This document shows, one piece after another, positions 37,602-61,577 of a DNA stretch of 64,000 nt; within the stretch, counting starts at the first letter, position 1, and the number at the start of each line of letters is the position of its first letter. The notes beneath the pieces are model-generated. The model was not told the DNA's origin, did not search any database, and saw only the letters and a list, made by a program, of their open reading frames with translations. The stretch is from Desulfurobacterium pacificum (GTDB taxonomy: Bacteria; Aquificota; Aquificia; Desulfurobacteriales; Desulfurobacteriaceae): positions 557,954 through 621,953 of the forward strand of contig NZ_FXUB01000001.1 in assembly GCF_900182835.1 (NCBI RefSeq), in the 5' to 3' direction. A program made the translations under genes and the position numbers.

Positions 37602-40110
37602 ACAGTATCTTGACCTGAAAGAGAAGTTCAAAGATGCAATCTTAATGTTCAGAATGGGTGACTTCTACGAAATGTTCTTTGAAGACGCAAAAGTAGCAGC
37701 AAAGGAACTGGAAATTGCCCTGACTTCAAGACCTTTTGGAAAGAATAGTGCCAAAGTCCCCATGTGCGGCGTTCCCTATCACGCTGTGGAAAACTACATA
37801 ACCAAACTGGTGAAAAAGGGCTACAAAGTTGCCATATGCGAGCAGTTAGAAGAACCAAAGCCTGGTAAAAAGGTCGTTGACAGAGACGTAGTCAGAGTTA
37901 TCACGCCCGGCACTTACTTTGAAGATGAAACGGAAGACAGATTCTTAATGGCAATATATCCGTTCAAAGGCAACTACTGCGTGGCGTGGTGCGAATTGGG
38001 AACAGGTGATTACCTTTTTACAACAGTTAATAAAAAGGAACTTCTGTCAATACTATCAAAGTTTAAGCCACGAGAAATCATCATTCCCAACACTTCTTCA
38101 ATTCATTCGCTAATAAAAGAAGCTCTTCCTCATGCCTCTATCGTTGAAAGAGAACCTTGCCTTTTTTCAGAAAAGGAAACAGTAATAGATGCAGAAAACA
38201 AAGGTGAAGTAAAAGCTATTTCTGCTCTCTCAGAGTTCGTTAAAGAAACCCAGAAAGAGTTTATACCCAAACTTAAAACTCCCCGTAAATACACAGGCAA
38301 CAGATACGTTTATATTGACCCTCAAACGCAGAAAAACCTTGAGCTTATAGAACCTGCTTTCGGCGACAACGACAAAGCATCTCTATTCGGCGTTTTAAAC
38401 AGAACAAAAACAGGAATGGGCAGAAGACTCTTAAAGTTCTGGATATTACATCCTTTAAGGGACATAAAAGAAATACAAAAACGCCTGAATGCTGTAGAGG
38501 AATTAACTAAAAACTACGAAACTTTAGAAAAACTTTCTTCAACGCTATCCCGAATATACGACCTGGAAAGATTACTATCCAAGATTACGTCTGGCATAGC
38601 CAACCCAAGAGAAATTGCCGCCTTAAGAAACTCTTTAAGTATACTTCCACAGCTCTTTCAGGAAATGTCCCAACTATCATCAACGCTATTTTCAGAAATA
38701 AAGAACGACTTTGACGACCTCTACGATATCTACTGCGAAATAGAAAGGGTTTTAGTAGAAAATCCCCCCACCTCTCCCAAAGAAGGCGGACTGATTAAAG
38801 AAGGCGTCAACGAAGAGTTAGATGAATTGAGAAAACTGAAAAGTCAGGCAGAATCAATCATAAGAGAGATAGAAGAAAGAGAAAGACAGAGAACAGGCAT
38901 ATCAAGCCTAAAAGTAGGCTACAACAACGTTTTCGGATACTACATAGAAGTTTCCAGACCAAACCTTCACCTGATTCCTGAAGATTACATAAGAAAACAA
39001 ACACTGGTCAATGCAGAAAGGTTTATAACGCCAGAACTAAAAGAGTTTGAAGAGAAAATCCTCTCCGCCCAGGAAAGAATAGAAAAGATAGAGTATGAAC
39101 TCTTCTCCAACCTACGCCAATTCATAACAGACAACGCCCACAGAATAATGAAAACGGCAGAGAAAGTCGCCCTCATAGATGTCCTTCAATCCTTAGCCGC
39201 CGTTGCAGTTGAAAGAGACTACACAAAACCTGAAGTAAAAGAAAGCTTCTCAATCTACATAGAAGAAGGTAAACACCCGGTTCTTGAAAAGTTCTTGGAA
39301 GAAGATTTCATTCCAAATACCACCGCCCTCACCCCCGAAAGTTACATCCTCATCGTTACAGGACCGAACATGGGCGGAAAATCGGTATTCCTGCGTCAGA
39401 CAGCCCTCATAACACTAATGGCACAAATAGGCTCTTTTGTGCCAGCCCAAAAGGCAAAAATAGGCATCGTTGACAGGATATTTTCCCGTATTGGCGCTGC
39501 AGACAACCTAAGCAAGGGGCTTTCAACCTTTATGATGGAAATGGTAGAAACTGCCAACATCCTGAAAAACGCCACAGAAAACAGCCTCATAATACTTGAT
39601 GAAATCGGAAGGGGAACGAGCACCTACGACGGCATGAGCATCGCAAGAGCTGTGGTGGAATACATCTCAGAAAAACTTTCTGCAAAAACTCTCTTTGCAA
39701 CCCACTACCATGAACTTACAGAACTTGAAGGAACGGTGAAAGGCATCAAAAACTTTCACGTTTCCGTAGAAGAAATAAACGGCAGAATAGTATTCACCCA
39801 TAAAGTTTTGCCCGGAGCGTCGGAAAAGTCCTACGGCGTCCACGTTGCAGAGTTAGCAGGACTTCCAAAGGAAGTAATAAAGAGAGCCAAAGAAATCCTC
39901 AGCAGCCTTGAAGAGAAAACCGACTACCTCCCCCTGTTTCAAAATATCCCCACCTACAGCGAAACTACAGAGTTTGAAAACGAAATGGTAGAAAGGCTTT
40001 TAGAAGAGTTAGAATCCATTGAAATTTCCACCACAACACCCCTTGAAGCGCTCATGATACTGTCAAAGTTGAAAGAAATCGCTAAAACGGTGAAAAGAGG
40101 TGGACGTTGA
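37567..40110 (+). CDS. mutS: DNA mismatch repair protein MutS.
   Basis: TPALKQYLDLK N-terminus, Walker A GPNMGGKS and the HTH C-terminus. The annotated ATG overlaps yacG by 35 nt, and an in-frame TTG at about 37585 is an alternative start. Confidence 0.9.
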   Translation: MKNQKKLTPALKQYLDLKEKFKDAILMFRMGDFYEMFFEDAKVAAKELEIALTSRPFGKNSAKVPMCGVPYHAVENYITKLVKKGYKVAICEQLEEPKPGKKVVDRDVVRVITPGTYFEDETEDRFLMAIYPFKGNYCVAWCELGTGDYLFTTVNKKELLSILSKFKPREIIIPNTSSIHSLIKEALPHASIVEREPCLFSEKETVIDAENKGEVKAISALSEFVKETQKEFIPKLKTPRKYTGNRYVYIDPQTQKNLELIEPAFGDNDKASLFGVLNRTKTGMGRRLLKFWILHPLRDIKEIQKRLNAVEELTKNYETLEKLSSTLSRIYDLERLLSKITSGIANPREIAALRNSLSILPQLFQEMSQLSSTLFSEIKNDFDDLYDIYCEIERVLVENPPTSPKEGGLIKEGVNEELDELRKLKSQAESIIREIEERERQRTGISSLKVGYNNVFGYYIEVSRPNLHLIPEDYIRKQTLVNAERFITPELKEFEEKILSAQERIEKIEYELFSNLRQFITDNAHRIMKTAEKVALIDVLQSLAAVAVERDYTKPEVKESFSIYIEEGKHPVLEKFLEEDFIPNTTALTPESYILIVTGPNMGGKSVFLRQTALITLMAQIGSFVPAQKAKIGIVDRIFSRIGAADNLSKGLSTFMMEMVETANILKNATENSLIILDEIGRGTSTYDGMSIARAVVEYISEKLSAKTLFATHYHELTELEGTVKGIKNFHVSVEEINGRIVFTHKVLPGASEKSYGVHVAELAGLPKEVIKRAKEILSSLEEKTDYLPLFQNIPTYSETTEFENEMVERLLEELESIEISTTTPLEALMILSKLKEIAKTVKRGGR

Positions 40111-41054
40111 TTTTGGTAACGGGCGGAGCAGGCTTCATAGGTTCACACCTCGTTGAAGAGATAGTAAAAAAGGAAAAAGTCGTTGTAGTGGATAACCTTT
40201 CAAGCGGAAAATTAGAGAACCTGCCAGAACACGAAAACCTTATTTTCCTGAAAGAAGACATATCGGATAAAAGCACAGTCAAGAATATCTTTGATAGCTA
40301 CCCTGTAAAAACCGTATATCATCTGGCAGCTGTTGCTTCCGTTCAAAGGTCGGTAGAGGAACCGGAAGAAACCCACAGAACAAACTTTGATTCAACTCTG
40401 TTCCTTTTAGAAGAGAGCAGAAAAAACAAAGTAAGCAAGTTTATATTTGCCTCCTCTGCAGCCGTTTACGGCGACCTTCCAGAACTGCCCAAAAGAGAGG
40501 ATATGCCCGTCAAACCGCTAACCCCTTACGGCGTTGACAAATACGCTTCCGAAAGATACGTGGTTAACAGCTTCCACCTTTACAACTTAAACGGCACAGC
40601 TCTGCGTTTTTTCAACGTTTACGGCGAAAGGCAGGACCCTTCATCCCCCTATTCCGGTGTTATTTCAATATTCATAGATAGAACTATAAAGCACCTTTCA
40701 GGTGAAGAAACGAAAATAGTCATATACGGCGATGGCAAACAAACGAGGGACTTTATCTACGTAAAAGACGTTGTTAAAGCTCTTATCCTTGTTGGCAAAT
40801 CACCTGAATCTAACGGAAAGGTTTTCAACGTGGGAACGGGCAGAGAAACCTCTCTCCTGCAGCTACTCAAAGTGATAGAAGAAATTGCCGGTGACGTTCC
40901 ACCGGTAAAGTTTGCCCCTCCCCGCAGAGGTGATGTAAAACGTTCCTGCGCAGATATAAGAAGAATTAAAGAGTTGGGGTTCCAGCCTTCCTATTCTTTG
41001 AAAGAAGGATTAAGAAAACTGTTCCAATACGAGCTTCAGAACCACAAACGATAA
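40107..41054 (+). CDS. NAD-dependent sugar-nucleotide epimerase/dehydratase (SDR). It is PelX-like, i.e. a candidate UDP-GlcNAc/UDP-Glc 4-epimerase.
   Basis: VTGGAGFIGSHL Rossmann motif and the YxxxK catalytic pattern (YGVDKY). Its 3' end converges on and overlaps the pelB-like gene. Confidence 0.75.
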   Translation: MILVTGGAGFIGSHLVEEIVKKEKVVVVDNLSSGKLENLPEHENLIFLKEDISDKSTVKNIFDSYPVKTVYHLAAVASVQRSVEEPEETHRTNFDSTLFLLEESRKNKVSKFIFASSAAVYGDLPELPKREDMPVKPLTPYGVDKYASERYVVNSFHLYNLNGTALRFFNVYGERQDPSSPYSGVISIFIDRTIKHLSGEETKIVIYGDGKQTRDFIYVKDVVKALILVGKSPESNGKVFNVGTGRETSLLQLLKVIEEIAGDVPPVKFAPPRRGDVKRSCADIRRIKELGFQPSYSLKEGLRKLFQYELQNHKR

Positions 41055-44014
41055 CCTGAAGTAATTGTCCAGCCAGAAGAGTTCGTTCCTTTAAAACCGT
41101 TAAAAACGGTTCCCTCTATATGTAAGTTGTCGTCTCCGAACAATTTTCCTCCTATCCCCAAAAGAACAGAAGCGTTCATTCCATATTTTGAGCTGTAGCT
41201 TAGAGAGGAATCAAAGTAAGGTCTCCAGACTCTGACAAAGCTGTTTCTATTCTCAAAGCCAAAGTTAAGCCCCACACCTAACTGATAGAAGCTGTCAGGC
41301 AGAACGTCGGCTGGTTTGTATTCAGATATCTTATCTGCATAAGAGTTAGTATGGTCAGATTCAGCGTATTCGTTAACAGAGAAGAAAAGCCTGAAAAGGT
41401 AATCCGGGTATCCCGAACGAGCTTTATAGGAAAGCTCTGAATAAAGCTCTCTACCTCTTCCCACGTAAACGCCGTCAACAGAGTAATACCTATCAAGGTA
41501 AAAAGAACTGAAAAATCCGTATTTGTTGGTAATAGGAAAGGAATACTCAAAACCGCCGCCGGACTTAAGAGTTGAAAAAGAAGCAATCTCTGAAACATCG
41601 CTCAAAGCGTTCACATAAAGTTTAACTGTTAACTGACTTCCCCTGTAAAAACTCCTGCTACCTTTCAGATAAAATCCCCTCCTCTCTCTACCCCCTGCTC
41701 TAAAGATAGTTACACCGCCAGAAAGCGAAGACTTGTGAAAATATCTCTTTAACCCCACGGCAACGTCAGCAGTTCCTTTTCTTTCTGACAGAACGTTTCC
41801 GCCGTTAAGAGAAAGCAGGTTGTTACTTTCAAAGGTGAAATAGGTATCATCTTCAAAATGCCAGCGCAGTTTAAAGTGCGGAGAAAGGTAGCTAAATCTA
41901 CCGCTCCTGTTAAACGTCAGGTCAGCAGAAAAAACAGAAGCGTAGTTGACAATCAGGTCTCTGAATTGACAGTAAAGCCTGTTATCTTCCCTGTTCTCTT
42001 CAAGACCCTTGTAAGCAACTACAAACGCTTTTCCGAACTTTTCTATCTCCTCAAGGGCTGCAACTCTGTCTCTTACTGGCAATATCTCTAAATACTTTGA
42101 CAATAACCTTTCCATCATATACCTGTCATCTTTGTAAAGAGCAAGAGAAAGTCTCATCCAGGGTTTCAGCTTAAAACTCTTCCTTTTCTGCAGATACTCA
42201 ACTTCTTCGTTCCTTCCGCGGTAAAGCAGGTAAGACAGGTAAATCTCTCTGGCAAAATCAGAATCCAGATAGCGTTTCAAACGAACATAATCTCTTTCAA
42301 ACTTTTCCGGTTGCTCAAAGTAGATAGCCGTGCGTAGATAAGCTTCAACGATATCCCTTCCTCTCTTTCCATTTTCAACTTCTCTCTCTGCCTTTTTAAA
42401 TATCTTAAACCTTAACTTTTTAGCTTCTCCTTCTCTGCCGTAAAGCTCTAAAACGTCCGCTTTTGTAAGCAGAAACGAAAGGCTTCTATCTTTCACAAAA
42501 TTAATGCACCGTAAAGCGTCTTTTCCGTCCTGCAAGAACAGGTATGCAGAAAGGAAATCCTCAGGTATCAGCTTTTCGTAACTTCGGTATTTTTCTAAAA
42601 CAGACTTTAAACCTTTAACGTCCTCTGCTGTAATGAGAAGGGATATGAGCTGGGATATCAGGTCGGGGGATGGGTGGGGGGATTTTTTTATGGCTGAGCG
42701 TATAAGCTTTTCTGCCCTATCAACTTCACCAATTTTTAGAAGAGCGTAAGTATAGATAGAAAAAATATCCGCATTGCTTAACAACTTTTCCCTCTGATTT
42801 TCAGGAAATCTATTGAGAAAATAAACAATATCTTTCCACCTTTTGTGTGAAGAGAGAAAAAACAGATAATAAATGAGAAAACTATCCTTTTTAAACCTTT
42901 TATAACCATCCAAAGCATACTTTGCTGCTAATTCTGGCTTTCTATAGTAAAAATACAGAACAACACGTTCATAATCATCAACACTTCCTTTCCCTTCCAA
43001 AATCAATCTCTCAGAAACTTTTACCGCAGTATCAAAATCACCAAGCGCCCAAGCAAGATTACTCAAGGTTCTCAAATAAGAAGCATCTTTCACCTTTTGC
43101 CATTCTTCCTTTAGAGAATCCAAAGATTTCCCAAACTGCCGCTTCGCAAAATAAATATGAGCAAGAAACAACCTATCTCTCGGATTTAATCCATACTTTT
43201 TTCTTAAAATCTTAAAAACCTCTAACGCCTTCTCCGTCTGTCCTCTATACCAATATATATTCGCTGCCACTCTTAAAGCTTCAGGATTATTACCATATTT
43301 TCTTACCAAGATTTCAGCAGCCTTGTCTGGCTGCCCAGCCACGTTAAACACGTTTATAACTTCTTTGAAACCTACGTTTATCCCCCTTTTAAGCATCAAA
43401 TTTAATGTTTTCATTGCTAAATCAGGTCTATTAAGCGCAAGAGACATTGAATAAAGTTCTCTCAAGTACTCCCACTTATGAAAACCAAAAACTAATTTTT
43501 CAAGTGCTTTTAGAGCAATTTCAGGCTTTCCACTCCAGGTAGCAACTGTTTTTAATCTCTCCCACCACAAATCAGAATTTGGAAACTTCTTTATTCCCAA
43601 AAGAGCTACAGTTAAAGCCTTATCTAACTTTCTATTCCCAAGATAAACGGTATAAAGAACATCCAACACACCGTTACCATGAATAACATTTTTCCTTTTT
43701 TTCTTTATTTTAGATACATCAGTAGGAACAAAAGAGTAGCTCTTAATACCTAAAGCCTTTAAAATACCTATCTTTCTCCTCAATTCCCTGACAGTAGAAG
43801 CAGTTAGAAACCTTACAGTATAGTATCCTTTATCAGTTTTATAAATAAACGCATCTCTCCTTATCTCCTGTGGAAGTTTTCTCAAAAACCCTTCTGCATA
43901 CTTATACGATGGAAACGTCGCTAACTGTATAGAGTAAGTCCCCGCAAAGACCACCTTCGGAAACAAAAGGAAAATCAACAAAACAATCCCCACTCCCCAC
44001 CAGTTACTTCTCAT
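41036..44014 (-). CDS. pelB: PelB-like outer-membrane export protein: signal peptide, SPOR-like domain, a long TPR region and a C-terminal beta-barrel porin.
   Basis: Signal peptide MRSNWWGVGIVLLIFLLFPKVVFA and a SPOR-like stretch (YSIQLATF...YYTVRF). The central region holds many helical TPR-like repeats. The C-terminal ~300 aa shows an alternating beta-strand pattern and ends in ...GYRLWF, a terminal Phe. It lies within a pel gene cluster. Confidence 0.7.
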   Translation of the reverse strand: MRSNWWGVGIVLLIFLLFPKVVFAGTYSIQLATFPSYKYAEGFLRKLPQEIRRDAFIYKTDKGYYTVRFLTASTVRELRRKIGILKALGIKSYSFVPTDVSKIKKKRKNVIHGNGVLDVLYTVYLGNRKLDKALTVALLGIKKFPNSDLWWERLKTVATWSGKPEIALKALEKLVFGFHKWEYLRELYSMSLALNRPDLAMKTLNLMLKRGINVGFKEVINVFNVAGQPDKAAEILVRKYGNNPEALRVAANIYWYRGQTEKALEVFKILRKKYGLNPRDRLFLAHIYFAKRQFGKSLDSLKEEWQKVKDASYLRTLSNLAWALGDFDTAVKVSERLILEGKGSVDDYERVVLYFYYRKPELAAKYALDGYKRFKKDSFLIYYLFFLSSHKRWKDIVYFLNRFPENQREKLLSNADIFSIYTYALLKIGEVDRAEKLIRSAIKKSPHPSPDLISQLISLLITAEDVKGLKSVLEKYRSYEKLIPEDFLSAYLFLQDGKDALRCINFVKDRSLSFLLTKADVLELYGREGEAKKLRFKIFKKAEREVENGKRGRDIVEAYLRTAIYFEQPEKFERDYVRLKRYLDSDFAREIYLSYLLYRGRNEEVEYLQKRKSFKLKPWMRLSLALYKDDRYMMERLLSKYLEILPVRDRVAALEEIEKFGKAFVVAYKGLEENREDNRLYCQFRDLIVNYASVFSADLTFNRSGRFSYLSPHFKLRWHFEDDTYFTFESNNLLSLNGGNVLSERKGTADVAVGLKRYFHKSSLSGGVTIFRAGGRERRGFYLKGSRSFYRGSQLTVKLYVNALSDVSEIASFSTLKSGGGFEYSFPITNKYGFFSSFYLDRYYSVDGVYVGRGRELYSELSYKARSGYPDYLFRLFFSVNEYAESDHTNSYADKISEYKPADVLPDSFYQLGVGLNFGFENRNSFVRVWRPYFDSSLSYSSKYGMNASVLLGIGGKLFGDDNLHIEGTVFNGFKGTNSSGWTITSGYRLWF

Positions 44015-45085
44015 TTAATTTCCTCCAGAAACCCTCTTCAAAAGCATATCAGCAATTCTCAAAGATAGCTTCCTATCGTTAATAGCTCTTGCCACACCTA
44101 AAAAGTAGTTAAGTACGCTGTCATTGTTAGAATATTTATCTAAATTCTCTTCAATAAGCTGAGAGACACTACCATAATCCCTTTTCCATAAAGCTAAGTT
44201 TATACACGTCTTAAGAACATTAAAGGATGGATTCTTTTTCAAGTAAACCTTACAAAATTCTAAAGCTCTATCGTAATCTTTATAAGAAAGCTCAAAATTC
44301 ACCAAAGTTCTAAAATCTTTGAAAGAGAACTCACCTCTATGAAGCAGGTTATAGGCTAATTGTTCAACTGTTCCCTTCTGTTTCAGATATAAAGCTGTTT
44401 TGAATAACTCTTTATCAAAATCTTTCCCAATCTCTCCTTTCCTCATCAAAATCTTTAACGTATCAGCAATCAGCTTTTTATCTCCAGAAGATATAGCAAG
44501 AACCATCAATTGCTTATAGTAATTTTCATCTCCCGTTAATTTCGCAAGTTTTTCACAACTCTTATAAGCCAAGTCCTTAAAGCCAAAGGCAAGAGCTTCC
44601 TCATAAACAAATCTATACGTTTCAATAGAAGGAAACGTCCTCTCATAAGACTCAAGAAACTTACGTATCTCTTTCCTTATTTTCTCTCTTTCCTTATTAT
44701 CCTTTTGGGCAAAATACTCCGATACAAGAATCTTAAAATCTAACTGATAAAGGAATTTTTTCTGCTTTTTATCCCTAATTTTTTCCAAATACTTTTCTAT
44801 AAGTCTATGAGCTTCTTCATACCTTCCTAACTTAACATCCTTCTCTATCAAAAGAGAAAACAACTTAGAATCAAACTTAATATCCAAAAGTTTTTCTAAA
44901 TATAATCTGGAAAGATCAAGGTTATAGTCTTCTTGAGTAAGCAGAATTTCATTCAATCTACCTTTCGGAAACATTACAAAAGCCAGAATCAAAAATAATC
45001 CAACAAAAGCTAACACTTCCCATTTAGAGAATATTTCAACGTTTACAAACTGCTTCCACTGTAACCTTTTTCTTTCTTGCTTCAA
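44015..45085 (-). CDS. Inner-membrane-anchored TPR protein. It is either a split-off N-terminal part of PelB or an accessory TPR protein.
   Basis: One N-terminal TM helix (VLAFVGLFLILAFVMF) followed by TPR-like helical repeats. Its stop directly abuts the start of the pelB-like gene. Confidence 0.55.
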   Translation of the reverse strand: MKQERKRLQWKQFVNVEIFSKWEVLAFVGLFLILAFVMFPKGRLNEILLTQEDYNLDLSRLYLEKLLDIKFDSKLFSLLIEKDVKLGRYEEAHRLIEKYLEKIRDKKQKKFLYQLDFKILVSEYFAQKDNKEREKIRKEIRKFLESYERTFPSIETYRFVYEEALAFGFKDLAYKSCEKLAKLTGDENYYKQLMVLAISSGDKKLIADTLKILMRKGEIGKDFDKELFKTALYLKQKGTVEQLAYNLLHRGEFSFKDFRTLVNFELSYKDYDRALEFCKVYLKKNPSFNVLKTCINLALWKRDYGSVSQLIEENLDKYSNNDSVLNYFLGVARAINDRKLSLRIADMLLKRVSGGN

Positions 45086-47801
45086 CCTCTACCATTCCTC
45101 CTTTCCTTTTCAAATTAACTCCATTACCCACTCTAAGAGAACAGGTATCAGCTACCCGCAAATCTGCCTTCAAAGGTAAAACTTCTGAATGCAGAACTAA
45201 ACGGTAATATCCTCTTTCTACATCTTTCCTAAAATCCTTTACCATACCGTTTGAACTCACCAGAACAAAATCGTTATCATCTCTATTAACAAAAACGATT
45301 CTCCTACATCTACTATCATCTAAAAATACGTAAATCCTGCCGTTTATCCTTCTATAACCAACAACTCCTTGAGATTTATCAATACTTGGTATCCCGCCCT
45401 TCCCCTCCAATCTAACTGTCTTCAAACTACCCGAAGAACAAAAGTACATATTTCCATCCCTATTACTTTCAGCAATACTTGCTCCCCTGAATTCCAAAAC
45501 CCGCTGGGCATATTCAGAGAGAAACATAGGAACAGTTCCTTGTCTCATAGCCCAATCGTAAACTTTCTTTAAAGCGTTGAAAGACAAAGGAAATTGAGCA
45601 GAGTAAAAATGGTAATAGATACTTATAGGCTTTAATCTTCTCGGCTTATCCGTAAGTTTAAACGTTGAAATAACTCTAACGTACCCATCTTTGATTTTCC
45701 AACCTTTCGTATAAACTTCCTCATTTTGAACAGGAGCATAAACTTGAAAAAATTTTCCCTTATTGATACCCATAGGAGAAACTTTACAAAGGTAAGGAAA
45801 AGTATCATCTATAGTTGTATCCCCTCCGTTAACGTTATAAACACCCAACTTATACGTTCTTTCAACAACCGGTGGCGGTGGGGCACAATCACCAGACCAC
45901 AACAACACTTTCGCCTTTTTACCATTAGGAGCAAGATATTTATCTATAAACTCGAGAGAATAATCAATTTCTTTCTTTACACTTGGAACATAACCGGGGA
46001 TAGGAAGATGATAACCATACTTAAGATTTCTCTTATCGGTAGGTTTCAAACCCATACTCATTCTGTAAACATCTATCCAGTTAAAAGGATGAGAATAAGT
46101 ATGACTCGCAGGCTCAACGTTAGGAAGCGAAAAAATACTTTTAGCAACTTCCATCAATTTCTTTGCCTTTTTAGGATAAAGCCCTCGTGGGTCAACTTCT
46201 CCAACTATTACAGAAACAGTATGCGGAACTTTATAAACCTTAAAAATCTTTTCTCTTAAAACTTCACCTACATATTTTCCATATTCCACAAAACTTTTAT
46301 CTGCAAACCCATCTCCATCTAAGTGAACAGTCATTATTCTCCGCCCACTCTCAGTCGTGACGTCAGGCGCAAAAGGCAATCGTCCAAAAACTTCCGAAAA
46401 CAGCCAAAACGGGTCAAAAACCCACAAACTATCGTTAAACATATCTTTAAGCAAGTAACCTGAATAACCGTAGCCGCCCCACGGAGTTATCGCAACAGGA
46501 ATGAACTTTTGACCTACAGAATTCTCTAAAACAAGCAAAGGAGTATATTTCCCTTTAGGATTTACAAAACTATCCGTAGGAAACGGATAGGCTTTAATCT
46601 CAAAACCATAAGTTCTTCCTTTATAAACAATCTTAGGAACTTCTTCGGGCTTTCTGTTGGAAACCAATTCAAAATTTAAGTGTTTTAACTGCTCAGGCGA
46701 AAAAACGCTTAAATCAACAATAAAAACCTTTATTCCTCTTTTCTTAGCTTTTAAAAGTAACTTTATTACTTTATCTTTATTTTTTTTCCCTCGTATATTC
46801 CATACAACAACGCCTTTTACATCGGAAGTTAAACTTTTTTCAGAAAAATCCCCCACACTCACCACCACCGGTTCATATCCCAACCATTCAAGCGGTAATT
46901 GAATTAACCTATGAACATCACTCTCATCAGGAATCTCTAAAGATGAGTCATAAACCAAAAGAATTTTCCTCTTCAAAATATGGAAAACTCCTTCTCCTAC
47001 CTCTGTCAAATTTTTATCAGCAACCCAAGGTATAAACCCCTCTTTTATTAACCTCTTAGCAACTCTCCTCGCCTCCTGTTCTTTATTAGACGGCAGATAG
47101 TCAATCACCACTACAGGTTTTTCTTCTTTTATCTTTTTAAGCTTATCTAACAACCATTGTCTTTCTCTATTTCCCACATCAACGTAATTAAGCTTAGCAT
47201 CTAATCCTTTATAAAGAGATTCAACAACTACCGCATCAATCAAACTTTTGACCTGAGGATAGACATCAAATCCCCTATTAACCATAATAATCTTCTTGGG
47301 ATAATTCCTCCTCAAAGCCTTGATAAACTCAACTTTTCTTCTTTCATAGCTTTTCCATTCCTTCTTAGGAAGAACCATTTGATAAGAATCAAGCGTATCC
47401 AAAAAAATCCCATCGTAACTCTTAAGCAAAGCACTTGCTTTCTTCAACATAAACTCAAAACATTCTTTATTTCTTAGATCAACAACAAAAGATTTCCACG
47501 CTTTATTCTTACCTAAAATCCAGCTTTTCCTAACGTGCTTAAAAAACTTTCTAAAAGGTTCTACCTCGCCCAAGCTAAAGTAAGCTATAAGCTTTCCCCT
47601 CCTTTTAACGTAAAACCTCTCTTTTATCTTTTCTGGAGTAAAAACATCAGGGTCAACAACTATCCAATCGTATGTATACAAAACTTGGTCTGGAGGCTCA
47701 GAATACATAAAAGCAACAGATGGCTTAACGCTTTGCGCAAAAACTTGAAATCCCCACAAAAAACTAAGTGTTAAGCATAAAAGTCCTATAATGAATCTCA
47801 T
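45036..47801 (-). CDS. pelA: PelA-like periplasmic bifunctional protein: an N-terminal GH114/GH166-type glycoside hydrolase and a C-terminal CE4 polysaccharide deacetylase.
   Basis: Signal peptide and a GH114-like TIM-barrel region (IAYFSLGEVE...GIFLDTLDSY...IMVNRGFD). A CE4-like HTYSHP motif and an upstream DGDG sequence are present. At 921 aa it is similar in length to P. aeruginosa PelA (948 aa). Confidence 0.7.
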   Translation of the reverse strand: MRFIIGLLCLTLSFLWGFQVFAQSVKPSVAFMYSEPPDQVLYTYDWIVVDPDVFTPEKIKERFYVKRRGKLIAYFSLGEVEPFRKFFKHVRKSWILGKNKAWKSFVVDLRNKECFEFMLKKASALLKSYDGIFLDTLDSYQMVLPKKEWKSYERRKVEFIKALRRNYPKKIIMVNRGFDVYPQVKSLIDAVVVESLYKGLDAKLNYVDVGNRERQWLLDKLKKIKEEKPVVVIDYLPSNKEQEARRVAKRLIKEGFIPWVADKNLTEVGEGVFHILKRKILLVYDSSLEIPDESDVHRLIQLPLEWLGYEPVVVSVGDFSEKSLTSDVKGVVVWNIRGKKNKDKVIKLLLKAKKRGIKVFIVDLSVFSPEQLKHLNFELVSNRKPEEVPKIVYKGRTYGFEIKAYPFPTDSFVNPKGKYTPLLVLENSVGQKFIPVAITPWGGYGYSGYLLKDMFNDSLWVFDPFWLFSEVFGRLPFAPDVTTESGRRIMTVHLDGDGFADKSFVEYGKYVGEVLREKIFKVYKVPHTVSVIVGEVDPRGLYPKKAKKLMEVAKSIFSLPNVEPASHTYSHPFNWIDVYRMSMGLKPTDKRNLKYGYHLPIPGYVPSVKKEIDYSLEFIDKYLAPNGKKAKVLLWSGDCAPPPPVVERTYKLGVYNVNGGDTTIDDTFPYLCKVSPMGINKGKFFQVYAPVQNEEVYTKGWKIKDGYVRVISTFKLTDKPRRLKPISIYYHFYSAQFPLSFNALKKVYDWAMRQGTVPMFLSEYAQRVLEFRGASIAESNRDGNMYFCSSGSLKTVRLEGKGGIPSIDKSQGVVGYRRINGRIYVFLDDSRCRRIVFVNRDDNDFVLVSSNGMVKDFRKDVERGYYRLVLHSEVLPLKADLRVADTCSLRVGNGVNLKRKGGMVEVEARKKKVTVEAVCKR

Positions 47802-49137
47802 AAAGAGCCCTCCTCAATAGAAGCGTAGCAAAAACAAAAGAAAAAAGCAGAGAAAACAGAAAACCGTAACCGTAAAAGTAAGGACCTCCCTTAATGCTCA
47901 GATAGGTAAAGAGAGCATTCGTAACGAAAAAAACAACAGTTGATACAACAGCTTCTCTCCGCAAGTCAAAATAAAAAAGCAGAGAAAGAACCACCATAAA
48001 GAGCAATTGCAGAGAAGTCCCTAAACACAAAATATTAAATAGAGGAATGTACAGCAGAGAAAGCTTAAACAACTTAAAAAGAGCATACTCCACCAAAAAA
48101 ACAATAACTAAAGCTATAGCCTGAATTCTAAAAACCTCTTGGATTAAAGACCTTATAGCCATAAGCATTTCATAACCTAACTCCAGGATTCTCTCTAAAG
48201 TTTCCCCTTCCCTCACAGCATCGTAGTATCTTTGATAGTATTCTGCAAATTCCCCTTCCAGTTTTAAAAAGAAAAACCCCATACCTGGCGCAATAGAAAG
48301 GTAAGCTAAAAACATCGGAACATCATAAACGATAGACGCCCTAAAAGGTCCCAGAACGTTTTCTCCCGTAGAACCTGAAAACCAAAAAAGAAACTTATCA
48401 ATCCATATTCCTAAGTTATAAAAAACACCTGCAACAGCCAAAGAGTAATAAACTCTCTTTCGGTTTAAAAAATCAAACTCAATCAATCTATCGGAAGGAA
48501 AGGATTTAAACATATAACCGACAATAAGAGAAAAAGTAATCCCCGCACCCACAAAATAAGCAATTAAAAAGCCTAACACAAAATATTTCTGCAACAAACC
48601 TGCCAGAAGAACCATAACACCAAAACCAAAAAGGAAAGAGGCAAAAACGAACTTATAACTTTTAAGTGACGTCAAAACAGTATTAGCTATCCAAAAACCA
48701 GAAAAGAGAGACATAAGAAACGCAAACAAAAGAACAAAAACTGGAGAAAGCTCCCTCACGTATAACAGCCCTACAAGTAGTCCAAAAATAAGCCCGGCAA
48801 TCATGCTAAGTGTAAGAGCTCCAATAAAATTAGGGAGAACTCTATCTATTTCCTTGCTAAAAATCCTATCCGCTACGTACCTGCTGAACAGCAGTTGCAA
48901 AGGAGAAGAAACTATTAAGCTCAAAGCCGTTACATAAGTAATAACTATCTGACATTTCCTAACAAAATCGTTGTCTCCAGAAACCTTCCCTGCAACTATA
49001 CCTGCAACTAATATCGCAACAATAGACACTATCCAAGGTCCTGCACTTAGAGAGACAGAATATGCAAAAGAAAGCAGGATTGAAGACAGCCTATTACTCT
49101 TTAATAACCTTTTTAGTTCAAACGATATCCCTGCCAT
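47764..49137 (-). CDS. pelG: PelG-like 12-TM polysaccharide transporter (MATE/MOP-like).
   Basis: The MAGISFELKRLL N-terminus resembles P. aeruginosa PelG (MAGIGFELRK...). It has about 12 hydrophobic helices and is 457 aa, against 456 aa for PelG. Confidence 0.75.
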   Translation of the reverse strand: MAGISFELKRLLKSNRLSSILLSFAYSVSLSAGPWIVSIVAILVAGIVAGKVSGDNDFVRKCQIVITYVTALSLIVSSPLQLLFSRYVADRIFSKEIDRVLPNFIGALTLSMIAGLIFGLLVGLLYVRELSPVFVLLFAFLMSLFSGFWIANTVLTSLKSYKFVFASFLFGFGVMVLLAGLLQKYFVLGFLIAYFVGAGITFSLIVGYMFKSFPSDRLIEFDFLNRKRVYYSLAVAGVFYNLGIWIDKFLFWFSGSTGENVLGPFRASIVYDVPMFLAYLSIAPGMGFFFLKLEGEFAEYYQRYYDAVREGETLERILELGYEMLMAIRSLIQEVFRIQAIALVIVFLVEYALFKLFKLSLLYIPLFNILCLGTSLQLLFMVVLSLLFYFDLRREAVVSTVVFFVTNALFTYLSIKGGPYFYGYGFLFSLLFSFVFATLLLRRALYEIHYRTFMLNT

Positions 49138-50614
49138 TTAAAAATTCCTCATACAACTTTCTGTAGCTATCAACAAACATCTCAAAGCTGTAAAACCTCT
49201 TAACTCTCTCAAATGCAACTCTACTACAGCTCTGCCATTCCCTTTCATTCTCCAAAAGCTCAAGGTATCCTTTGGCTATTTCACTCGGATTCGCAACTGG
49301 AGCAATCCTACCTGCTCTCCCTAATCTCACATCAGCCTCATTTAAACCACCATATATCAATTGCCTGCAAGAACCAACATCCGTAGCAACGCACGGAACA
49401 CCCGCTGCAAAAGACTCCAAAACTACTAAAGGCATTCCTTCACTTATAGATGTAAGGGTCGTAATCTTTACTTTTTTAAGAACCTCTGAAACACGACGAA
49501 AACCTAAAAACTTTACGTTATTCTCTAATCGCAAAACTTCTACCAACTTTTTACACTCTTCAAAATACTCCGGGTCTTCATCTGTAGGACCAACAACCCA
49601 CCCCTCAACTTTAGCGTTTTTATTAACAACAATCCTCATCGCCTTAATAAAAGTTTTAATATCTTTTATAGGCACAACCCTACCAATTAAAGCAACTACG
49701 GGCAATCTATCTCTACTTTTCCTTGCTTCCTCATACAGCTCTACTTTTACTCCATTAGGAATAACCATTGTCTTTTCTTCAGGAGCACCTAAAGAAATTT
49801 GAACTCTACGAGCATCTTCAAAGAGAGAAATGATTACAGAAGCAGTTCTGTAAGAGATTTTCCCTAAACCCACGAAGAAATTAATCCACATTCTCCTAAG
49901 ATGGTCAATCTCTCCATACTCTTTCTGATAAAAGAACCTCCTATCCTGTATCCAATCTGAATTCAGAATATCTATCTTCCTTTCTCTCGTATAAATACCA
50001 TGCTCAGTAAGGATAAAAGGTGATTTATAACTGTTTCTAATTAAAGAAGCTAAAAAACCAGCATATCCCGTAGAAGGACTATGAACCAATCTTGGTCTAT
50101 CTACTTCTTCAACTATTGAAGCTACCCTCCATAAAGGGTCATGAATATTCCTTACCGTCCAAAAATAATCAATAAAAGGCAAATCTTCAGCAAAAGTCAT
50201 ATAGCTTTCACATATAAACTCCCAAGAAGTTCTCCCATACAGAAACTCCTCCTCTTTAACCTCTTTTAAGTAAAAATCCTTTCTATGTAGGTTTTCAGGT
50301 ATATCTCCTCCACTCCTTCTGAACCAACAGTGCAAAAACCTCAATTTCTCTAAAAGTTTTTCTCTCTTTTTTAGACTTTGAGGCTCTGGTCTATCCTTTT
50401 TATCAAAAAGAAAAAACTCCTTAACAAACAAAACATTATCCGGAATATCGTACTGAATCTCTCCGTAATCCTCCCTCCTACTTCCCAAAAATACAACGCC
50501 AAAGGTAAACTCTGTTAAAGAAGTAATGAGCTGATGTATCCAAGAGGAAACTCCTCCCCTTATGTAAGGATACGTTCCTTCAGCTACCATTAAAATATCA
50601 GGATTATGTGTCAT
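49118..50614 (-). CDS. pelF: PelF-like GT4 family glycosyltransferase.
   Basis: EGTYPYIRGGVSSWIHQL N-terminal motif typical of PelF-type GT4 enzymes, plus the GT-B C-terminal EX7E region. Confidence 0.75.
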   Translation of the reverse strand: MTHNPDILMVAEGTYPYIRGGVSSWIHQLITSLTEFTFGVVFLGSRREDYGEIQYDIPDNVLFVKEFFLFDKKDRPEPQSLKKREKLLEKLRFLHCWFRRSGGDIPENLHRKDFYLKEVKEEEFLYGRTSWEFICESYMTFAEDLPFIDYFWTVRNIHDPLWRVASIVEEVDRPRLVHSPSTGYAGFLASLIRNSYKSPFILTEHGIYTRERKIDILNSDWIQDRRFFYQKEYGEIDHLRRMWINFFVGLGKISYRTASVIISLFEDARRVQISLGAPEEKTMVIPNGVKVELYEEARKSRDRLPVVALIGRVVPIKDIKTFIKAMRIVVNKNAKVEGWVVGPTDEDPEYFEECKKLVEVLRLENNVKFLGFRRVSEVLKKVKITTLTSISEGMPLVVLESFAAGVPCVATDVGSCRQLIYGGLNEADVRLGRAGRIAPVANPSEIAKGYLELLENEREWQSCSRVAFERVKRFYSFEMFVDSYRKLYEEFLNGRDIV

Positions 50615-51605
50615 TCCTCAATCTACCTTCCCACAAAAGTTTCATAAAGTAAACATTTGGATGTAAAGACAATGGAATTCCTTCCCAAAGTTTCTTAACG
50701 TTTTCATAATTCCCACGATAAAACTCAATCTCTGCAAGGTAAGGAATAACTCTTATTTTCGTTACAACATCATTACATTCCAAAGCTTTAGAGAGATATT
50801 CAAATGCCTTCTCATAATCACCTTTCCTTAAAAAAATCCTCCCCGCCACCAAATACACATCTGGGTCACCATTTAACTCCAAAACCTTTTTAACGTAAAA
50901 CAACGTTTCTTCCACAACAAAATTTTCAAGTTCCTTATCCACAAGCCCAAAATAGAGCAATTCCCAATAAAGAAGAGCTAACTTCTTATAAACTTCCAAC
51001 AGTTCCTTCTCTGCCAAACCTTCTTTTAAGCGGCTCTTTAAAAAACTTATCCTGTCATTTATCTCTTTCTCTAAATGAGAAATAATAGAAAAAGCAGTAA
51101 GTCTCACCTCATCTTTAGGATTTCCCAAAGCCCTTTTAGCTATCTCTATAGAAACAGGCGTTCTCATCTCCTTAAGTAGAAAAACAGCTCGTTCATCAAT
51201 ACGGTGAGCTTCACGTTTAAAAAACTGCAAAACTCCTTCTCCAAATTTCCTCGGTCTAACTCTAACATTATCCATAGTTATCTCTTCAACCTGAATACGC
51301 GAAACTGAAGGAGTTCTATCCCTTTTCTGCTTTCTTAAAACAAGCACATACAAAATCAAATAGGCAACATAACCAACTAACGGAAAAAGGAAAACAGAAA
51401 GAAAAATCGCTGGAAAGCTTCCTCTTGCTCTCCTATAAATAGACGTTACAAAAGGATAGATAAAAACAGAAAAAAGCAAAGATGCAATAAAATGAAAAAA
51501 CAAAAAAGCAAAAACAGCAACGTACGGGTTATCAACCCTTAGAAAACCTAAAGCCATAGATTCAAGTATAACAGAACCCACTAAAGTCTTATAGCTGCTT
51601 CCCAA
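50604..51605 (-). CDS. pelE: PelE-like inner-membrane protein (N-terminal TM helices plus a cytoplasmic TPR-like domain).
   Basis: Four predicted TM segments in the first ~100 aa, then TPR-like helical repeats. 333 aa against 329 aa for PelE. Confidence 0.6.
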   Translation of the reverse strand: MGSSYKTLVGSVILESMALGFLRVDNPYVAVFAFLFFHFIASLLFSVFIYPFVTSIYRRARGSFPAIFLSVFLFPLVGYVAYLILYVLVLRKQKRDRTPSVSRIQVEEITMDNVRVRPRKFGEGVLQFFKREAHRIDERAVFLLKEMRTPVSIEIAKRALGNPKDEVRLTAFSIISHLEKEINDRISFLKSRLKEGLAEKELLEVYKKLALLYWELLYFGLVDKELENFVVEETLFYVKKVLELNGDPDVYLVAGRIFLRKGDYEKAFEYLSKALECNDVVTKIRVIPYLAEIEFYRGNYENVKKLWEGIPLSLHPNVYFMKLLWEGRLRNDT

Positions 51606-51625
51606 ATTTCCCCCTCAAATACCTA

Positions 51626-52891: not shown

Positions 52892-53340
52892 AACGCCTTG
52901 TCAAACAATTCCTGTGTCATTAATCCCAAAGATTTATTTCCCCATTCAGTTGCAGACAGAGAACCTGAAGCCAACTTTTTCCCAGTTTTCAAGTCTTTAA
53001 CAACATATGTAACGCTCACAGCCGGCTCTCCATCTATTCCGACCTTATAACGCCATTCATTTACATATCCACTAATCACGCACCTGTAACCTTCTTTTAT
53101 TAAATCTCCTTTTTCAGCCCCATTAACTAAATCAACGTTGTAGCCCTTAGACTTTAAAACTCCATAAAGAATAGCAGCCACCCTACTACCTGCCAAAGGA
53201 GTTTCACTATAGTTAGTAAAAGGAACCACAGCACAATGAAAACCTTTAAAGTCTTGCCTTTTCGTCTGATTTATCAAAGTAGCACAGCCGCTTAAAACGA
53301 AAGAAAACGCAAATAATCCCCATAAAAGTTTTTTAATCAT
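52888..53340 (-). CDS. pelC: PelC-like outer-membrane lipoprotein.
   Basis: Lipobox LSGC after the signal peptide, about 150 aa, and first gene of the pel-like operon (ATGA overlap with pelD). Confidence 0.6.
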   Translation of the reverse strand: MIKKLLWGLFAFSFVLSGCATLINQTKRQDFKGFHCAVVPFTNYSETPLAGSRVAAILYGVLKSKGYNVDLVNGAEKGDLIKEGYRCVISGYVNEWRYKVGIDGEPAVSVTYVVKDLKTGKKLASGSLSATEWGNKSLGLMTQELFDKAF

Positions 53341-53412
53341 TATTACTCCCCCTTAACAAAGTAATAACGAATTTTAACACTTAATTTATCACAATGAATT
53401 GATATTAGTCAA

Positions 53413-55483: not shown

Positions 55484-55533
55484 CGTTTATTTGGTATCTT
55501 TTTAAAAAACGAAAACTGGCAGGTAATAAATTA

Positions 55534-56598: not shown

Positions 56599-56599
56599 G

Positions 56600-56686
56600 T
56601 GGTGCGGGAGGCGGGATTTGAACCCGCACGCCCGTAAGGGCACCGCCCCCTCAAGACGGCGCGTCTGCCGATTCCGCCACTCCCGC
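56600..56686 (-). tRNA. tRNA-Leu (anticodon GAG).
   Basis: Reverse complement GCGGGAGTGGCGGAATCGGCAGACGCGCCGTCTTGAGGGGGCGG...GGTTCAAATCCCGCCTCCCGCACCA. Anticodon stem CCGTC/GGCGG with loop TTGAGGG. Confidence 0.8.
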
Positions 56687-56695
56687 AATCGGACG

Positions 56696-59120: not shown

Positions 59121-59259
59121 AGTACATCTCCCTTAAATTCGTTCGCCCGAATTTTAGCAAAACCCCTGCGTACAATTTGAAAAAAACACTAATAAAACTA
59201 TTTTCAACAATAAACAAAGAAACAGGAGTTAGATAAAAAAGTTTTGGAGGAACAGCAGT

Positions 59260-60801: not shown

Positions 60802-60803
60802 AA

Positions 60804-60894: not shown

Positions 60895-60915
60895 CAATAT
60901 TATTCAATATTTAAA

Positions 60916-61566: not shown

Positions 61567-61577
61567 CGGAGGCAATA

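What the first reader, a model, noticed from the sequence alone, without database searches (positions are those of the whole stretch)
41036..45085. PelB-like exporter carries an N-terminal SPOR-like domain and is accompanied by a separate TM-anchored TPR protein (possible split PelB)
Canonical PelB is one ~1200-aa protein made of an N-terminal TM helix, TPR repeats and a beta-barrel. Here a 356-aa ORF supplies the TM helix and TPR repeats, and ends exactly where a 992-aa ORF begins. The 992-aa ORF has its own signal peptide, a SPOR-like peptidoglycan-binding fold (YSIQLATF...YYTVRF), more TPR repeats and the barrel ending in GYRLWF. It is either a genuine two-protein PelB or a frameshift or stop splitting one gene. 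A SPOR domain on a PelB-like exporter would tether the secretion complex to septal or denuded peptidoglycan.
Basis: partly seen in the sequence, partly recalled or inferred. Interest (0 to 1): 0.6.

Follow-up and report, generated by a model that had tools for sequence, protein, structure and literature searches.

The report
Split PelB exporter with SPOR domain
In this heat-loving vent bacterium the biofilm-sugar export protein PelB is genuinely encoded as two genes, a split already noted in related thermophiles, and the outer-membrane half carries a small cell-wall-binding (SPOR) domain that has not been discussed for this machinery.

Summary
Window 44015-45085 (356 aa) and 41036-44014 (992 aa) are adjacent minus-strand ORFs at the end of a complete pel operon ordered pelC-D-E-F-G-A-B. 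They share one frame and are separated only by TAA followed directly by ATG, so there is no frameshift.

The split is real. About 20 Aquificota genomes and MAGs have it, mostly with an ATGA overlap in a different frame. Each has a Shine-Dalgarno sequence and a signal peptide on the downstream protein.

Profile comparisons place the 356-aa protein on PelB residues about 10-277 (inner-membrane helix plus first TPRs). The 992-aa protein, residues 112-992, maps to PelB about 285-1175 (remaining TPRs plus barrel).

Residues 25-100 of the 992-aa protein form a SPOR domain:
- AF2 gives a beta-alpha-beta-beta-alpha-beta fold.
- The isolated domain passes Pfam's SPOR threshold.
- The key beta1 glutamine is invariant.

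The SPOR domain is limited to Desulfurobacteriaceae, with two tandem copies in D. indicum and D. atlanticum. One Aquificaceae MAG has an AMIN domain at the same position.

The pelB fission was already reported in 2020. I found no literature on the SPOR or AMIN addition. Peptidoglycan anchoring is inferred, not shown.

The parts
52888..53340 (-). pelC, a 150-aa lipoprotein and first gene of the operon
   Evidence: phmmer hit to PelC in PDB 9h80_C (E 1.4e-16) and to 5t11/5t10/5t0z. The sequence contains LSGC, which looks like a lipoprotein signal.
51626..52891 (-). pelD (421 aa)
   Evidence: PF16963 PelD_GGDEF, 32 bits against a cut-off of 27.
50604..51605 (-). pelE-like gene (333 aa, membrane helices plus TPR)
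   Evidence: Weak TPR hits. It sits between pelD and pelF, as in all related loci. It is not a paralogue of the 356-aa protein: only 7.5 bits to the PelB-N HMM.
49118..50614 (-). pelF glycosyltransferase (498 aa)
   Evidence: NF038011 PelF equivalog, 603.9 bits.
47764..49137 (-). pelG (457 aa)
   Evidence: PF16933 PelG, 428.6 bits.
45036..47801 (-). pelA-like gene (921 aa)
   Evidence: PF03537 Glyco_hydro_114, 68 bits. Same position in all related loci.
44015..45085 (-). pelB-N: a 356-aa protein corresponding to the first ~280 residues of unsplit PelB (inner-membrane helix plus about 9 TPR-like hairpins)
   Evidence: hhalign against canonical PelB columns 10-277, probability 97.8%, E 7e-13. 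HMM hits to the N-termini of 7 of 7 canonical PelBs. Hit to PaPelB residues 57-214, E 2e-5. AF2 model with pLDDT 84.8, all-alpha. Foldseek hits are all TPR superhelices.
44972..45025 (-). Predicted membrane helix of PelB-N (residues 21-38), preceded by a K/R-rich N-terminus
   Evidence: AF2 helix at residues 21-38. Highest 19-residue hydropathy window at residues 22-42. The FPKG motif after the helix is invariant in orthologues.
44012..44026 (-). Gene junction: Shine-Dalgarno GGAGG (44026-44022), TAA stop of pelB-N (44017-44015), ATG of pelB-C (44014-44012)
   Evidence: Read directly from the sequence. The equivalent junctions in relatives also carry GGAGG or AGAGG.
41036..44014 (-). pelB-C: a 992-aa protein with signal peptide, SPOR domain, TPR scaffold and PelB beta-barrel
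   Evidence: PF13429 113.7 bits and PF24604 97 bits. hhalign of residues 112-992 against canonical PelB 315-1234, E 2.7e-59. Match to PaPelB 285-1175, E 1.9e-27.
43943..44014 (-). Predicted Sec signal peptide (residues 1-24, VFA|G)
   Evidence: The sequence shows a basic n-region, a hydrophobic core and V-x-A before G25. All orthologues have an equivalent N-terminus. No signal-peptide predictor was available.
43715..43942 (-). SPOR domain (residues 25-100)
41045..41932 (-). PelB C-terminal outer-membrane beta-barrel (residues 695-990)
   Evidence: PF24604, residues 695-990, 97 bits.
40107..41054 (+). Convergent SDR sugar-nucleotide 4-epimerase (315 aa) overlapping the pelB-C 3' end by 19 nt. 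Probably an accessory gene that supplies precursor (PelX-like).
   Evidence: PF01370, 219 bits. PDB hits 4zrm (8e-72) and 6wjb/6wj9 (about 1e-68). Same arrangement in Thermovibrio L001.

Best explanation
This is a natural two-gene PelB at the end of a complete Pel exopolysaccharide operon in Desulfurobacterium pacificum.

PelB-N (356 aa) is the part of PelB that carries the uncleaved N-terminal hydrophobic helix and the first TPR-like repeats. It most likely stays in the inner membrane with its helical domain in the periplasm (inferred).

PelB-C (992 aa) starts at an ATG immediately after the stop codon of PelB-N and has its own Shine-Dalgarno sequence. It is most likely exported by Sec, loses a 24-residue signal peptide, and inserts its C-terminal barrel into the outer membrane. 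There the PelC ring and PelA would dock on it as in Pseudomonas (inferred from homology).

The new mature N-terminus of PelB-C is a SPOR domain joined to the TPR scaffold by a lysine-rich linker of about 12 residues. SPOR domains bind peptidoglycan glycan strands that lack stem peptides. The most likely role is therefore to pin the periplasmic end of the outer-membrane half to the cell wall. This would replace the covalent inner-membrane tether lost through the fission and position the conduit over the PelDEFG synthase and PelB-N.

Whether it also concentrates export at division sites is open.

What is shown and what is inferred:
- Shown computationally: the gene structure, the homology of both halves, conservation of the split, and the SPOR fold with its signature glutamine.
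- Inferred: the membrane topology, signal-peptide cleavage, peptidoglycan binding, and non-covalent assembly of the two halves.
For: Gene structure and junction.

Complete pel operon.

Collinear homology:
- PelB-N against canonical PelB columns 10-277. It also hits 7 of 7 canonical PelB N-termini at E 1e-16 to 2e-6 with 0 of 140 shuffles, and PaPelB residues 57-214.
- PelB-C residues 112-992 against canonical PelB 315-1234 and PaPelB 285-1175.

Conservation of the split across Desulfurobacteriaceae, Hydrogenothermaceae and Aquificaceae, mostly as an out-of-frame ATGA overlap with a Shine-Dalgarno sequence, whereas Caballeronia and Trinickia PelB are unsplit.

SPOR domain:
- AF2 fold.
- Foldseek: RlpA, CwlC and DamX SPOR domains fill ranks 1-4.
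- Pfam SPOR passes its cut-off when the domain is isolated, and 14 of 24 subfamily members hit SPOR, best E 3e-11.
- Orthologues in D. indicum and D. atlanticum score 34 and 28 bits and carry two tandem copies.
- The beta1 glutamine that contacts NAM/NAG in the RlpA-glycan structure (PMC6895207) is invariant in 24 of 24 sequences.

Independent support that cell wall is the ligand: an Aquificaceae MAG (L018) has an AMIN domain (PF11741, 47 bits) at the same N-terminal position of its PelB-C.

Benedens et al. 2025 (PMC12141448) propose that the N-terminal helix of unsplit PelB is an uncleaved inner-membrane anchor. That fits a separately encoded PelB-N.
Against: No experiment supports any step; everything is in silico.

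In the full-length Pfam scan the SPOR hit is below threshold (17.6 against 21 bits). The AF2 model rests on a two-sequence alignment. PDB sequence searches with SPOR-subfamily profiles gave no significant SPOR hit; CwlC scored E 0.28.

The SPOR domain is absent from one close relative (P0003/L009, 57% identity) and from all Hydrogenothermaceae and most Aquificaceae split PelBs. It is therefore not required for the split system to exist.

The signal peptide and membrane topology were judged by eye and by hydropathy only. Interaction between the two halves was not modelled.
Confidence: 0.75

Rival explanations
1. The split is an artefact or a recent pseudogenisation: a sequencing error or nonsense mutation interrupts an ordinary single pelB gene.
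For: In this window the two ORFs share one frame and are separated by a single TAA. Together they cover the whole of canonical PelB.
Against: The same split is found in independent assemblies of at least three Aquificota families. Most have a 4-nt ATGA overlap that puts the ORFs in different frames, and sequence identity falls as low as about 25-33%. Every downstream ORF begins with a signal peptide and is preceded by a Shine-Dalgarno motif. About 110 residues (signal peptide plus SPOR) have no counterpart in unsplit PelB.
Confidence: 0.02
2. The two ORFs are joined in some molecules by programmed stop-codon read-through, giving a full-length PelB of about 1349 aa alongside the separate halves.
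For: The junctions are in-frame, with the stop directly followed by ATG, in D. pacificum, Thermovibrio sp. and Sulfurihydrogenibium.
Against: Most relatives are out of frame. A read-through product would bury a signal peptide in the middle of a periplasmic domain. No read-through context or RNA structure was looked for or noticed.
Confidence: 0.03
3. The SPOR-like domain does not anchor to peptidoglycan. Instead it binds the Pel polymer itself, an amino-sugar glycan without peptides, or another partner, and acts as a substrate-handling module at the entrance of the outer-membrane half.
For: SPOR domains recognise peptide-free glycan strands through backbone and glutamine contacts (PMC6895207). 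Pel is a GalNAc/GalN polymer (PMC12022489). The domain sits exactly where the polymer would pass from PelB-N to PelB-C.
Against: All characterised SPOR domains bind peptidoglycan. An unrelated peptidoglycan-binding fold (AMIN) occupies the same position in another lineage. The same SPOR subfamily is attached to unrelated outer-membrane proteins such as a TolC-like OEP protein. That points to a generic cell-wall ligand.
Confidence: 0.12
4. The SPOR domain serves mainly to target Pel export to division septa or new poles, as it does for FtsN, DamX, DedD and RlpA, rather than as a general structural tether.
For: Denuded glycans are enriched at septa, and all studied SPOR proteins localise there (PMC6895207). 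The signature glutamine is conserved.
Against: Nothing is known about where denuded glycans occur in Aquificota. The subfamily is also found on transporters and barrels with no link to division. This is compatible with the best explanation and differs only in emphasis.
Confidence: 0.3

Closest known systems
Pseudomonas aeruginosa PelB (PA3063, 1193 aa; PDB 9h80 chain M)
   Same: Same C-terminal barrel family (PF24604) and the same TPR scaffold, collinear over residues 285-1175 for PelB-C and 57-214 for PelB-N. Same operon partners PelA and PelC-G.
   Different: Here it is encoded as two polypeptides, broken at about PaPelB residue 280. The outer-membrane half has its own cleavable signal peptide and an added SPOR domain. 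The gene order is CDEFG-A-B instead of ABCDEFG.
Split pelB of Sulfurihydrogenibium azorense and other 'aquatic thermophilic species' (Bundalovic-Torma et al. 2020, PLoS Comput Biol, Fig 5(iii) and supplementary operon table)
   Same: Same fission point, same gene order, and an abutting stop/ATG junction.
   Different: The S. azorense PelB-C has only a short low-complexity linker after its signal peptide and no SPOR domain. The paper notes the fission in a figure legend only and says nothing about added domains.
SPOR-domain proteins RlpA, FtsN, DamX, DedD and CwlC
   Different: In those proteins the SPOR domain is C-terminal and attached to division or cell-wall-remodelling proteins. Here it is N-terminal on a polysaccharide export porin, sometimes in tandem.
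PilQ-type secretins and AmiC, which carry N-terminal AMIN domains (from my own knowledge of the literature, not tested here)
   Same: A large outer-membrane export channel carrying a peptidoglycan-binding module at its periplasmic N-terminus. One Aquificaceae PelB-C has an AMIN domain in exactly this place.
   Different: Different channel fold (secretin multimer against a single beta-barrel with TPR scaffold) and, in this window, a different wall-binding fold (SPOR rather than AMIN).
AlgK/AlgE, and the single-chain TPR-porins PgaA and BcsC, of other synthase-dependent exopolysaccharide systems
   Same: A TPR scaffold plus an outer-membrane barrel for polymer export. AlgK/AlgE shows that scaffold and barrel can be separate proteins (known from the literature; mentioned in PMC12022489).
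   Different: In AlgK/AlgE the break lies between scaffold and barrel. Here it lies inside the TPR scaffold, and the detached part is anchored in the inner membrane rather than being an outer-membrane lipoprotein.

Membership tests
PelB (Pel exopolysaccharide export TPR-porin) | C-terminal PelB-type outer-membrane beta-barrel | tested here: met
   PF24604 scores 97 bits against a cut-off of 31, residues 695-990. Aligned to PaPelB through residue 1175.
PelB (Pel exopolysaccharide export TPR-porin) | Long periplasmic TPR scaffold collinear with PelB | tested here: met
   hhalign of residues 112-992 against PelB 315-1234, E 2.7e-59. TPR_15 scores 113.7 bits.
PelB (Pel exopolysaccharide export TPR-porin) | N-terminal hydrophobic helix and first TPRs on the same polypeptide as the barrel | tested here: not met
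   These lie on a separate 356-aa ORF ending in TAA. That ORF is homologous to PelB 10-277. The pair together is a PelB equivalent; neither protein alone is a full PelB.
PelB (Pel exopolysaccharide export TPR-porin) | Encoded in an operon with pelA, pelC, pelD, pelE, pelF and pelG | tested here: met
   The same layout is found in relatives.
PelB (Pel exopolysaccharide export TPR-porin) | Exports Pel (GalNAc/GalN polymer) across the outer membrane | not testable with these tools
   This needs genetics and biochemistry in Desulfurobacterium or a heterologous host.
SPOR domain (Pfam PF05036) | Profile score above the Pfam gathering threshold | tested here: met
   22.8 bits against 21 when residues 25-104 are scanned alone, but 17.6 bits in the full-length scan. 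Orthologous domains score 28-34 bits and other subfamily members up to 96 bits.
SPOR domain (Pfam PF05036) | RNP-like beta-alpha-beta-beta-alpha-beta fold with a four-stranded sheet backed by two helices | tested here: met
SPOR domain (Pfam PF05036) | Conserved glutamine in beta1 (RlpA Q270, FtsN Q251, DamX Q351) with a small residue at +3 | tested here: met
   Q30 is invariant in 24 of 24 subfamily sequences. The Pfam alignment starts at domain residue 1 = profile position 3, which places Q at profile position 8, the position named in PMC6895207. Residue +3 is T33.
SPOR domain (Pfam PF05036) | Binds denuded peptidoglycan glycan strands or localises to septa | not testable with these tools
   This requires sacculus pull-down, ITC or localisation assays.
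AlgK/AlgE-type two-protein scaffold plus porin | Break between TPR scaffold and barrel; scaffold protein is an outer-membrane lipoprotein | tested here: not met
   The break is inside the TPR region, at about PelB residue 280. PelB-C retains about 580 residues of TPR. PelB-N has a membrane helix and no lipobox.

The most novel reading that the evidence does not exclude
After PelB split into an inner-membrane half and an outer-membrane half in the Aquificota, the free N-terminus of the outer-membrane half was independently fitted with cell-wall-binding modules. These are one or two SPOR domains in Desulfurobacteriaceae and an AMIN domain in an Aquificaceae lineage.

This would mean that the trans-envelope Pel conduit needs a fixed periplasmic anchor. 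In unsplit PelB that anchor would be the uncleaved N-terminal helix in the inner membrane, and after fission it would be peptidoglycan.

The split proteins would then be natural evidence for the proposal that PelB bridges both membranes. The vent-thermophile SPOR subfamily, also found on TolC-like and other barrel proteins, would be a general tether between outer membrane and cell wall.
Probability: 0.35. Interest if true: 0.6.

Novelty: new variant of a known kind. Interest (0 to 1): 0.42.

Why it matters
How the Pel polymer crosses the periplasm is an open question. So is whether PelB really spans from inner to outer membrane; Benedens et al. 2025 raise this possibility.

A conserved natural split at about residue 280 shows that the helix-bearing N-terminal module is a separable unit. 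It also gives a ready-made design for testing the two halves in trans in Pseudomonas.

A SPOR or AMIN module on the outer-membrane half would be the first indication I could find in the searched literature that a synthase-dependent exopolysaccharide porin is anchored to, or positioned by, peptidoglycan.

The practical impact is modest. The organisms are vent thermophiles, the fission is already published, and the domain is partly picked up by automatic annotation: UniRef calls the D. indicum orthologue 'SPOR domain-containing protein'.

Tried and rejected
- The word-indexed homologue search with the 85-aa SPOR segment found nothing. The exhaustive HMMER search was needed instead.
- PDB sequence searches with SPOR-subfamily profiles returned only repetitive de novo TIM barrels and T4 lysozyme as spurious top hits, with CwlC at E 0.28. 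Sequence alone therefore does not link this domain to solved SPOR structures; fold comparison does.
- A narrow 5-sequence PelB-N profile did not hit P. aeruginosa PelB. A broader 12-sequence profile did, at E 2e-5.
- The afdb50 fold library was unavailable.
- I considered that the 356-aa protein might be a PelE paralogue, since PelE is also a membrane helix plus TPR. I rejected this: PelE scores 7.5 bits against the PelB-N HMM, whereas the 356-aa protein itself scores 412 bits and canonical PelBs score 33-66 bits.
- The frameshift idea is rejected by inspection, because the ORFs share a frame.
- The promoter and terminator scan found fewer promoter-like sites than in shuffled sequence and nothing at the junction. 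This is consistent with co-transcription.
- No second copy of the SPOR subfamily is present elsewhere in the window.
- Literature searches for PelB with SPOR, and for 'SPOR domain' with 'Pel polysaccharide', found nothing relevant.
Full report
**What is in the sequence**

The window matches Desulfurobacterium pacificum. The 992-aa product is 100% identical to a protein NCBI names only 'tetratricopeptide repeat-containing protein'.

On the minus strand between 53340 and 41036 lies one tightly packed operon. Its genes, in order, are:
- A 150-aa lipoprotein that matches PelC of the P. aeruginosa PelBC cryo-EM entry 9h80 (E 1.4e-16).
- PelD (PF16963).
- A PelE-like membrane/TPR protein.
- PelF (NF038011, 604 bits).
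- PelG (PF16933, 429 bits).
- A 921-aa PelA-like protein (GH114 hit).
- The 356-aa ORF at 44015-45085.
- The 992-aa ORF at 41036-44014.

The junction reads GGAGGAAAT-TAA-ATG. The two ORFs are in the same frame and one stop codon apart, and a GGAGG lies 7 nt before the ATG. A frameshift is therefore excluded. Only a nonsense change or a true gene boundary remains possible.

**Is the split real?**

I looked up the genomic context of the closest homologues:
- Thermovibrio sp. (61% identity).
- A Desulfurobacteriaceae metagenome bin (57%).
- Sulfurihydrogenibium azorense (33%).

In each, the same two ORFs follow pelA in the same pelC-D-E-F-G-A order. Junctions are GGAGGGTAGGTAAATG, GGAGGAAACCAGATGA and AGAGGGTTTTAGATG.

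A scan of one genome per species returned 25 loci. Wherever the region upstream of the barrel-bearing gene could be read cleanly in an Aquificota locus, a separate upstream ORF of 222-412 aa was present. Most of these have a 4-nt ATGA overlap, which puts the two genes in different frames. The lineages include Desulfurobacteriaceae, Hydrogenothermaceae, and Aquificaceae such as Hydrogenobacter and 'Ca. Pampinifervens'. Two MAGs labelled Acidobacteria and Desulfobacterales show the same arrangement. A few loci were cut off at a contig end or gave no clear upstream ORF in the script, including the three Thermocrinis loci.

The three Burkholderiales loci (Caballeronia, Trinickia) have a single PelB of about 1300 aa.

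A sequencing error, a recent pseudogene or obligatory read-through cannot explain a boundary that is conserved across families, changes frame, always carries a ribosome-binding site, and is always followed by a signal peptide.

**What the two halves are**

A profile of four PelB-N proteins aligns to columns 10-277 of a profile of canonical 1190-1260-aa PelBs (hhalign probability 97.8%, E 7e-13). The alignment includes the membrane helix and the FP(K/Q)-x-x-L ... LS-x-x-YL-x-x-LL motif.

A 15-sequence HMM hits all seven canonical PelBs available, always at their extreme N-terminus. E-values are 1e-16 to 2e-6 at a nominal database size of one million. None of 140 shuffled controls reached E 1000. 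A 12-sequence profile finds P. aeruginosa PelB residues 57-214 at E 2e-5. PelE of this operon scores only 7.5 bits, so the 356-aa protein is not a PelE duplicate.

The AF2 model has mean pLDDT 84.8. It shows a helix at residues 21-38 followed by about nine helical hairpins, and its PDB matches are all TPR superhelices.

The profile of the barrel-bearing proteins aligns from residue 112 to the end with canonical PelB 315-1234 (E 2.7e-59) and with P. aeruginosa PelB 285-1175 (E 1.9e-27).

The two proteins therefore tile PelB collinearly, with the break at about residue 280. Residues 1-111 of the 992-aa protein have no counterpart in unsplit PelB.

**The SPOR domain**

In the full-length Pfam scan the SPOR hit is sub-threshold (17.6 against 21 bits).

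An exhaustive HMMER search with residues 25-109 found 35 cluster representatives. The best are other PelB-C proteins carrying the same N-terminal domain:
- D. indicum and D. atlanticum, each with two tandem copies.
- T. ammonificans HB-1 and several Desulfurobacteriaceae bins, each with one copy.

Other hits include proteins with clear Pfam SPOR matches of up to 96 bits.

Scanned alone, the window's domain reaches 22.8 bits. Fourteen of 24 subfamily members match SPOR (best E 3e-11), and no competing family appears.

Alcorlo et al. 2019 (PMC6895207) state that the only highly conserved SPOR residue is the beta1 glutamine that hydrogen-bonds NAM and NAG. Here it is Q30, which is invariant in all 24 aligned subfamily members. 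The Pfam alignment coordinates place it at profile position 8.

I conclude that this is a SPOR domain. Binding to peptidoglycan is inferred from that identity.

**Distribution and a parallel case**

The SPOR domain is absent from one close Desulfurobacteriaceae relative (P0003/L009). It is also absent from all Hydrogenothermaceae and most Aquificaceae PelB-C proteins, which have short low-complexity linkers after the signal peptide. It is therefore a lineage-specific addition that came after the fission.

One Aquificaceae MAG (L018) has an AMIN domain in the same place (PF11741, 47 bits, E 2.5e-12). This is an unrelated fold which, from my knowledge of AmiC and PilQ, also binds cell wall. Two different wall-binding folds at the same position argue that the ligand is peptidoglycan rather than the Pel polymer.

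The same SPOR subfamily also sits at the N-terminus of other proteins:
- A TolC-like OEP protein (P0029).
- Persephonella (P0022) and metagenomic (P0014) proteins of 782 and 982 aa, whose C-terminal regions look barrel-like by eye only.
- A Nautilia protein.

This hints at a broader use as a tether between outer membrane and cell wall in vent thermophiles.

**Mechanism proposed**

PelB-N is predicted to insert in the inner membrane with its K/R-rich N-terminus in the cytoplasm and its TPR domain in the periplasm, next to the PelDEFG synthase.

PelB-C is predicted to be secreted, cleaved after VFA24, and folded into the outer membrane. It carries the TPR region that corresponds to the PelA-binding repeats of P. 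aeruginosa PelB (PMC12022489) and the barrel on which the PelC ring sits (PMC12141448).

The SPOR domain at the mature N-terminus would fix the inner end of this scaffold to glycan strands lacking stem peptides.

Translation of the two genes is probably coupled through the abutting stop and start.

All of these steps are inferences. The shown parts are the gene structure, the homologies, the conservation and the fold.

**Relation to what is known**

Bundalovic-Torma et al. [quoted passage not shown] Their supplementary table gives two adjacent PelB loci for S. azorense Az-Fu1. The split is therefore not new.

They do not mention added domains. Full-text searches for PelB with SPOR, and for 'SPOR domain' with 'Pel polysaccharide', found nothing relevant. 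Automatic annotation already labels the D. indicum orthologue 'SPOR domain-containing protein' in UniRef.

Benedens et al. 2025 suggest that the uncleaved N-terminal helix lets PelB 'physically bridge two membranes'. The natural split fits that picture and makes it testable in trans.

**Verdict**

- The fission is already known.
- The SPOR addition, and the AMIN addition elsewhere, make this a new variant of a known kind.
- Interest is moderate (0.42).

Noticed in passing
window 40107-41054 (+): A 315-aa SDR sugar-nucleotide epimerase lies convergent to pelB-C and overlaps its 3' end by 19 nt. Its best PDB sequence matches are UDP-glucose 4-epimerase 4zrm (8e-72) and 6wjb/6wj9 (about 1e-68). 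From memory, 6wjb/6wj9 are PelX, the UDP-GlcNAc C4-epimerase of the P. protegens pel locus. The same gene is convergent in Thermovibrio (L001 13000-13938), and an epimerase precedes pelC in Sulfurihydrogenibium (L006 1-518). It may supply UDP-GalNAc for Pel.
   Followed up: partly
L018 2608-5673 (Aquificaceae MAG JBKBNZ010000002): This PelB-C orthologue carries an N-terminal AMIN domain (PF11741, 47 bits) in the position where D. pacificum has SPOR. Its PelB-N (382 aa) is separate, with an ATGA overlap.
   Followed up: partly
P0029, P0022, P0014, P0027 (hits): The same SPOR subfamily sits at the N-terminus of a TolC-like OEP protein (P0029, PF02321 86 bits), a 782-aa Persephonella 'SPOR domain-containing protein', a 982-aa metagenomic protein with two copies, and a Nautilia profundicola protein. 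It may be a general outer-membrane-to-wall tether in vent thermophiles. The barrel nature of P0014 and P0022 was judged by eye only.
   Followed up: partly
window 42000-62000: GC content falls to 0.35-0.39 and GC skew becomes strongly negative across and beyond the pel operon, compared with 0.40-0.45 in 1-42000. This could reflect strand bias or a horizontally acquired block. It was not examined.
   Followed up: no
window 54962-55483 (-): A 173-aa ORF with a RusA Holliday-junction resolvase hit (PF05866, 27.6 bits) lies two genes upstream of the pel operon, next to an FAD-dependent protein gene (53413-54972). RusA is often prophage-derived.
   Followed up: no
window 45036-47801 (-): Pfam recognises PelA here only through its GH114-type hydrolase region (residues 47-266). 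The rest, presumably including the deacetylase domain recently assigned to family CE21 (PMC12022489), has no Pfam match.
   Followed up: no
L010/L015 (Desulfurobacteriaceae MAG JALTBO01): This one MAG yields two different PelB-C loci: L010, complete with SPOR, and L015, a fragment at 43% identity. This suggests two pel loci or a mixed bin.
   Followed up: no
L012 2323-4833 and P0021 cluster: The SPOR-bearing PelB-C of an uncultured bacterium appears cut at 836 aa in several independent assemblies, while one cluster member is 1013 aa. This may be a frameshift or a real truncation inside the barrel region.
   Followed up: no
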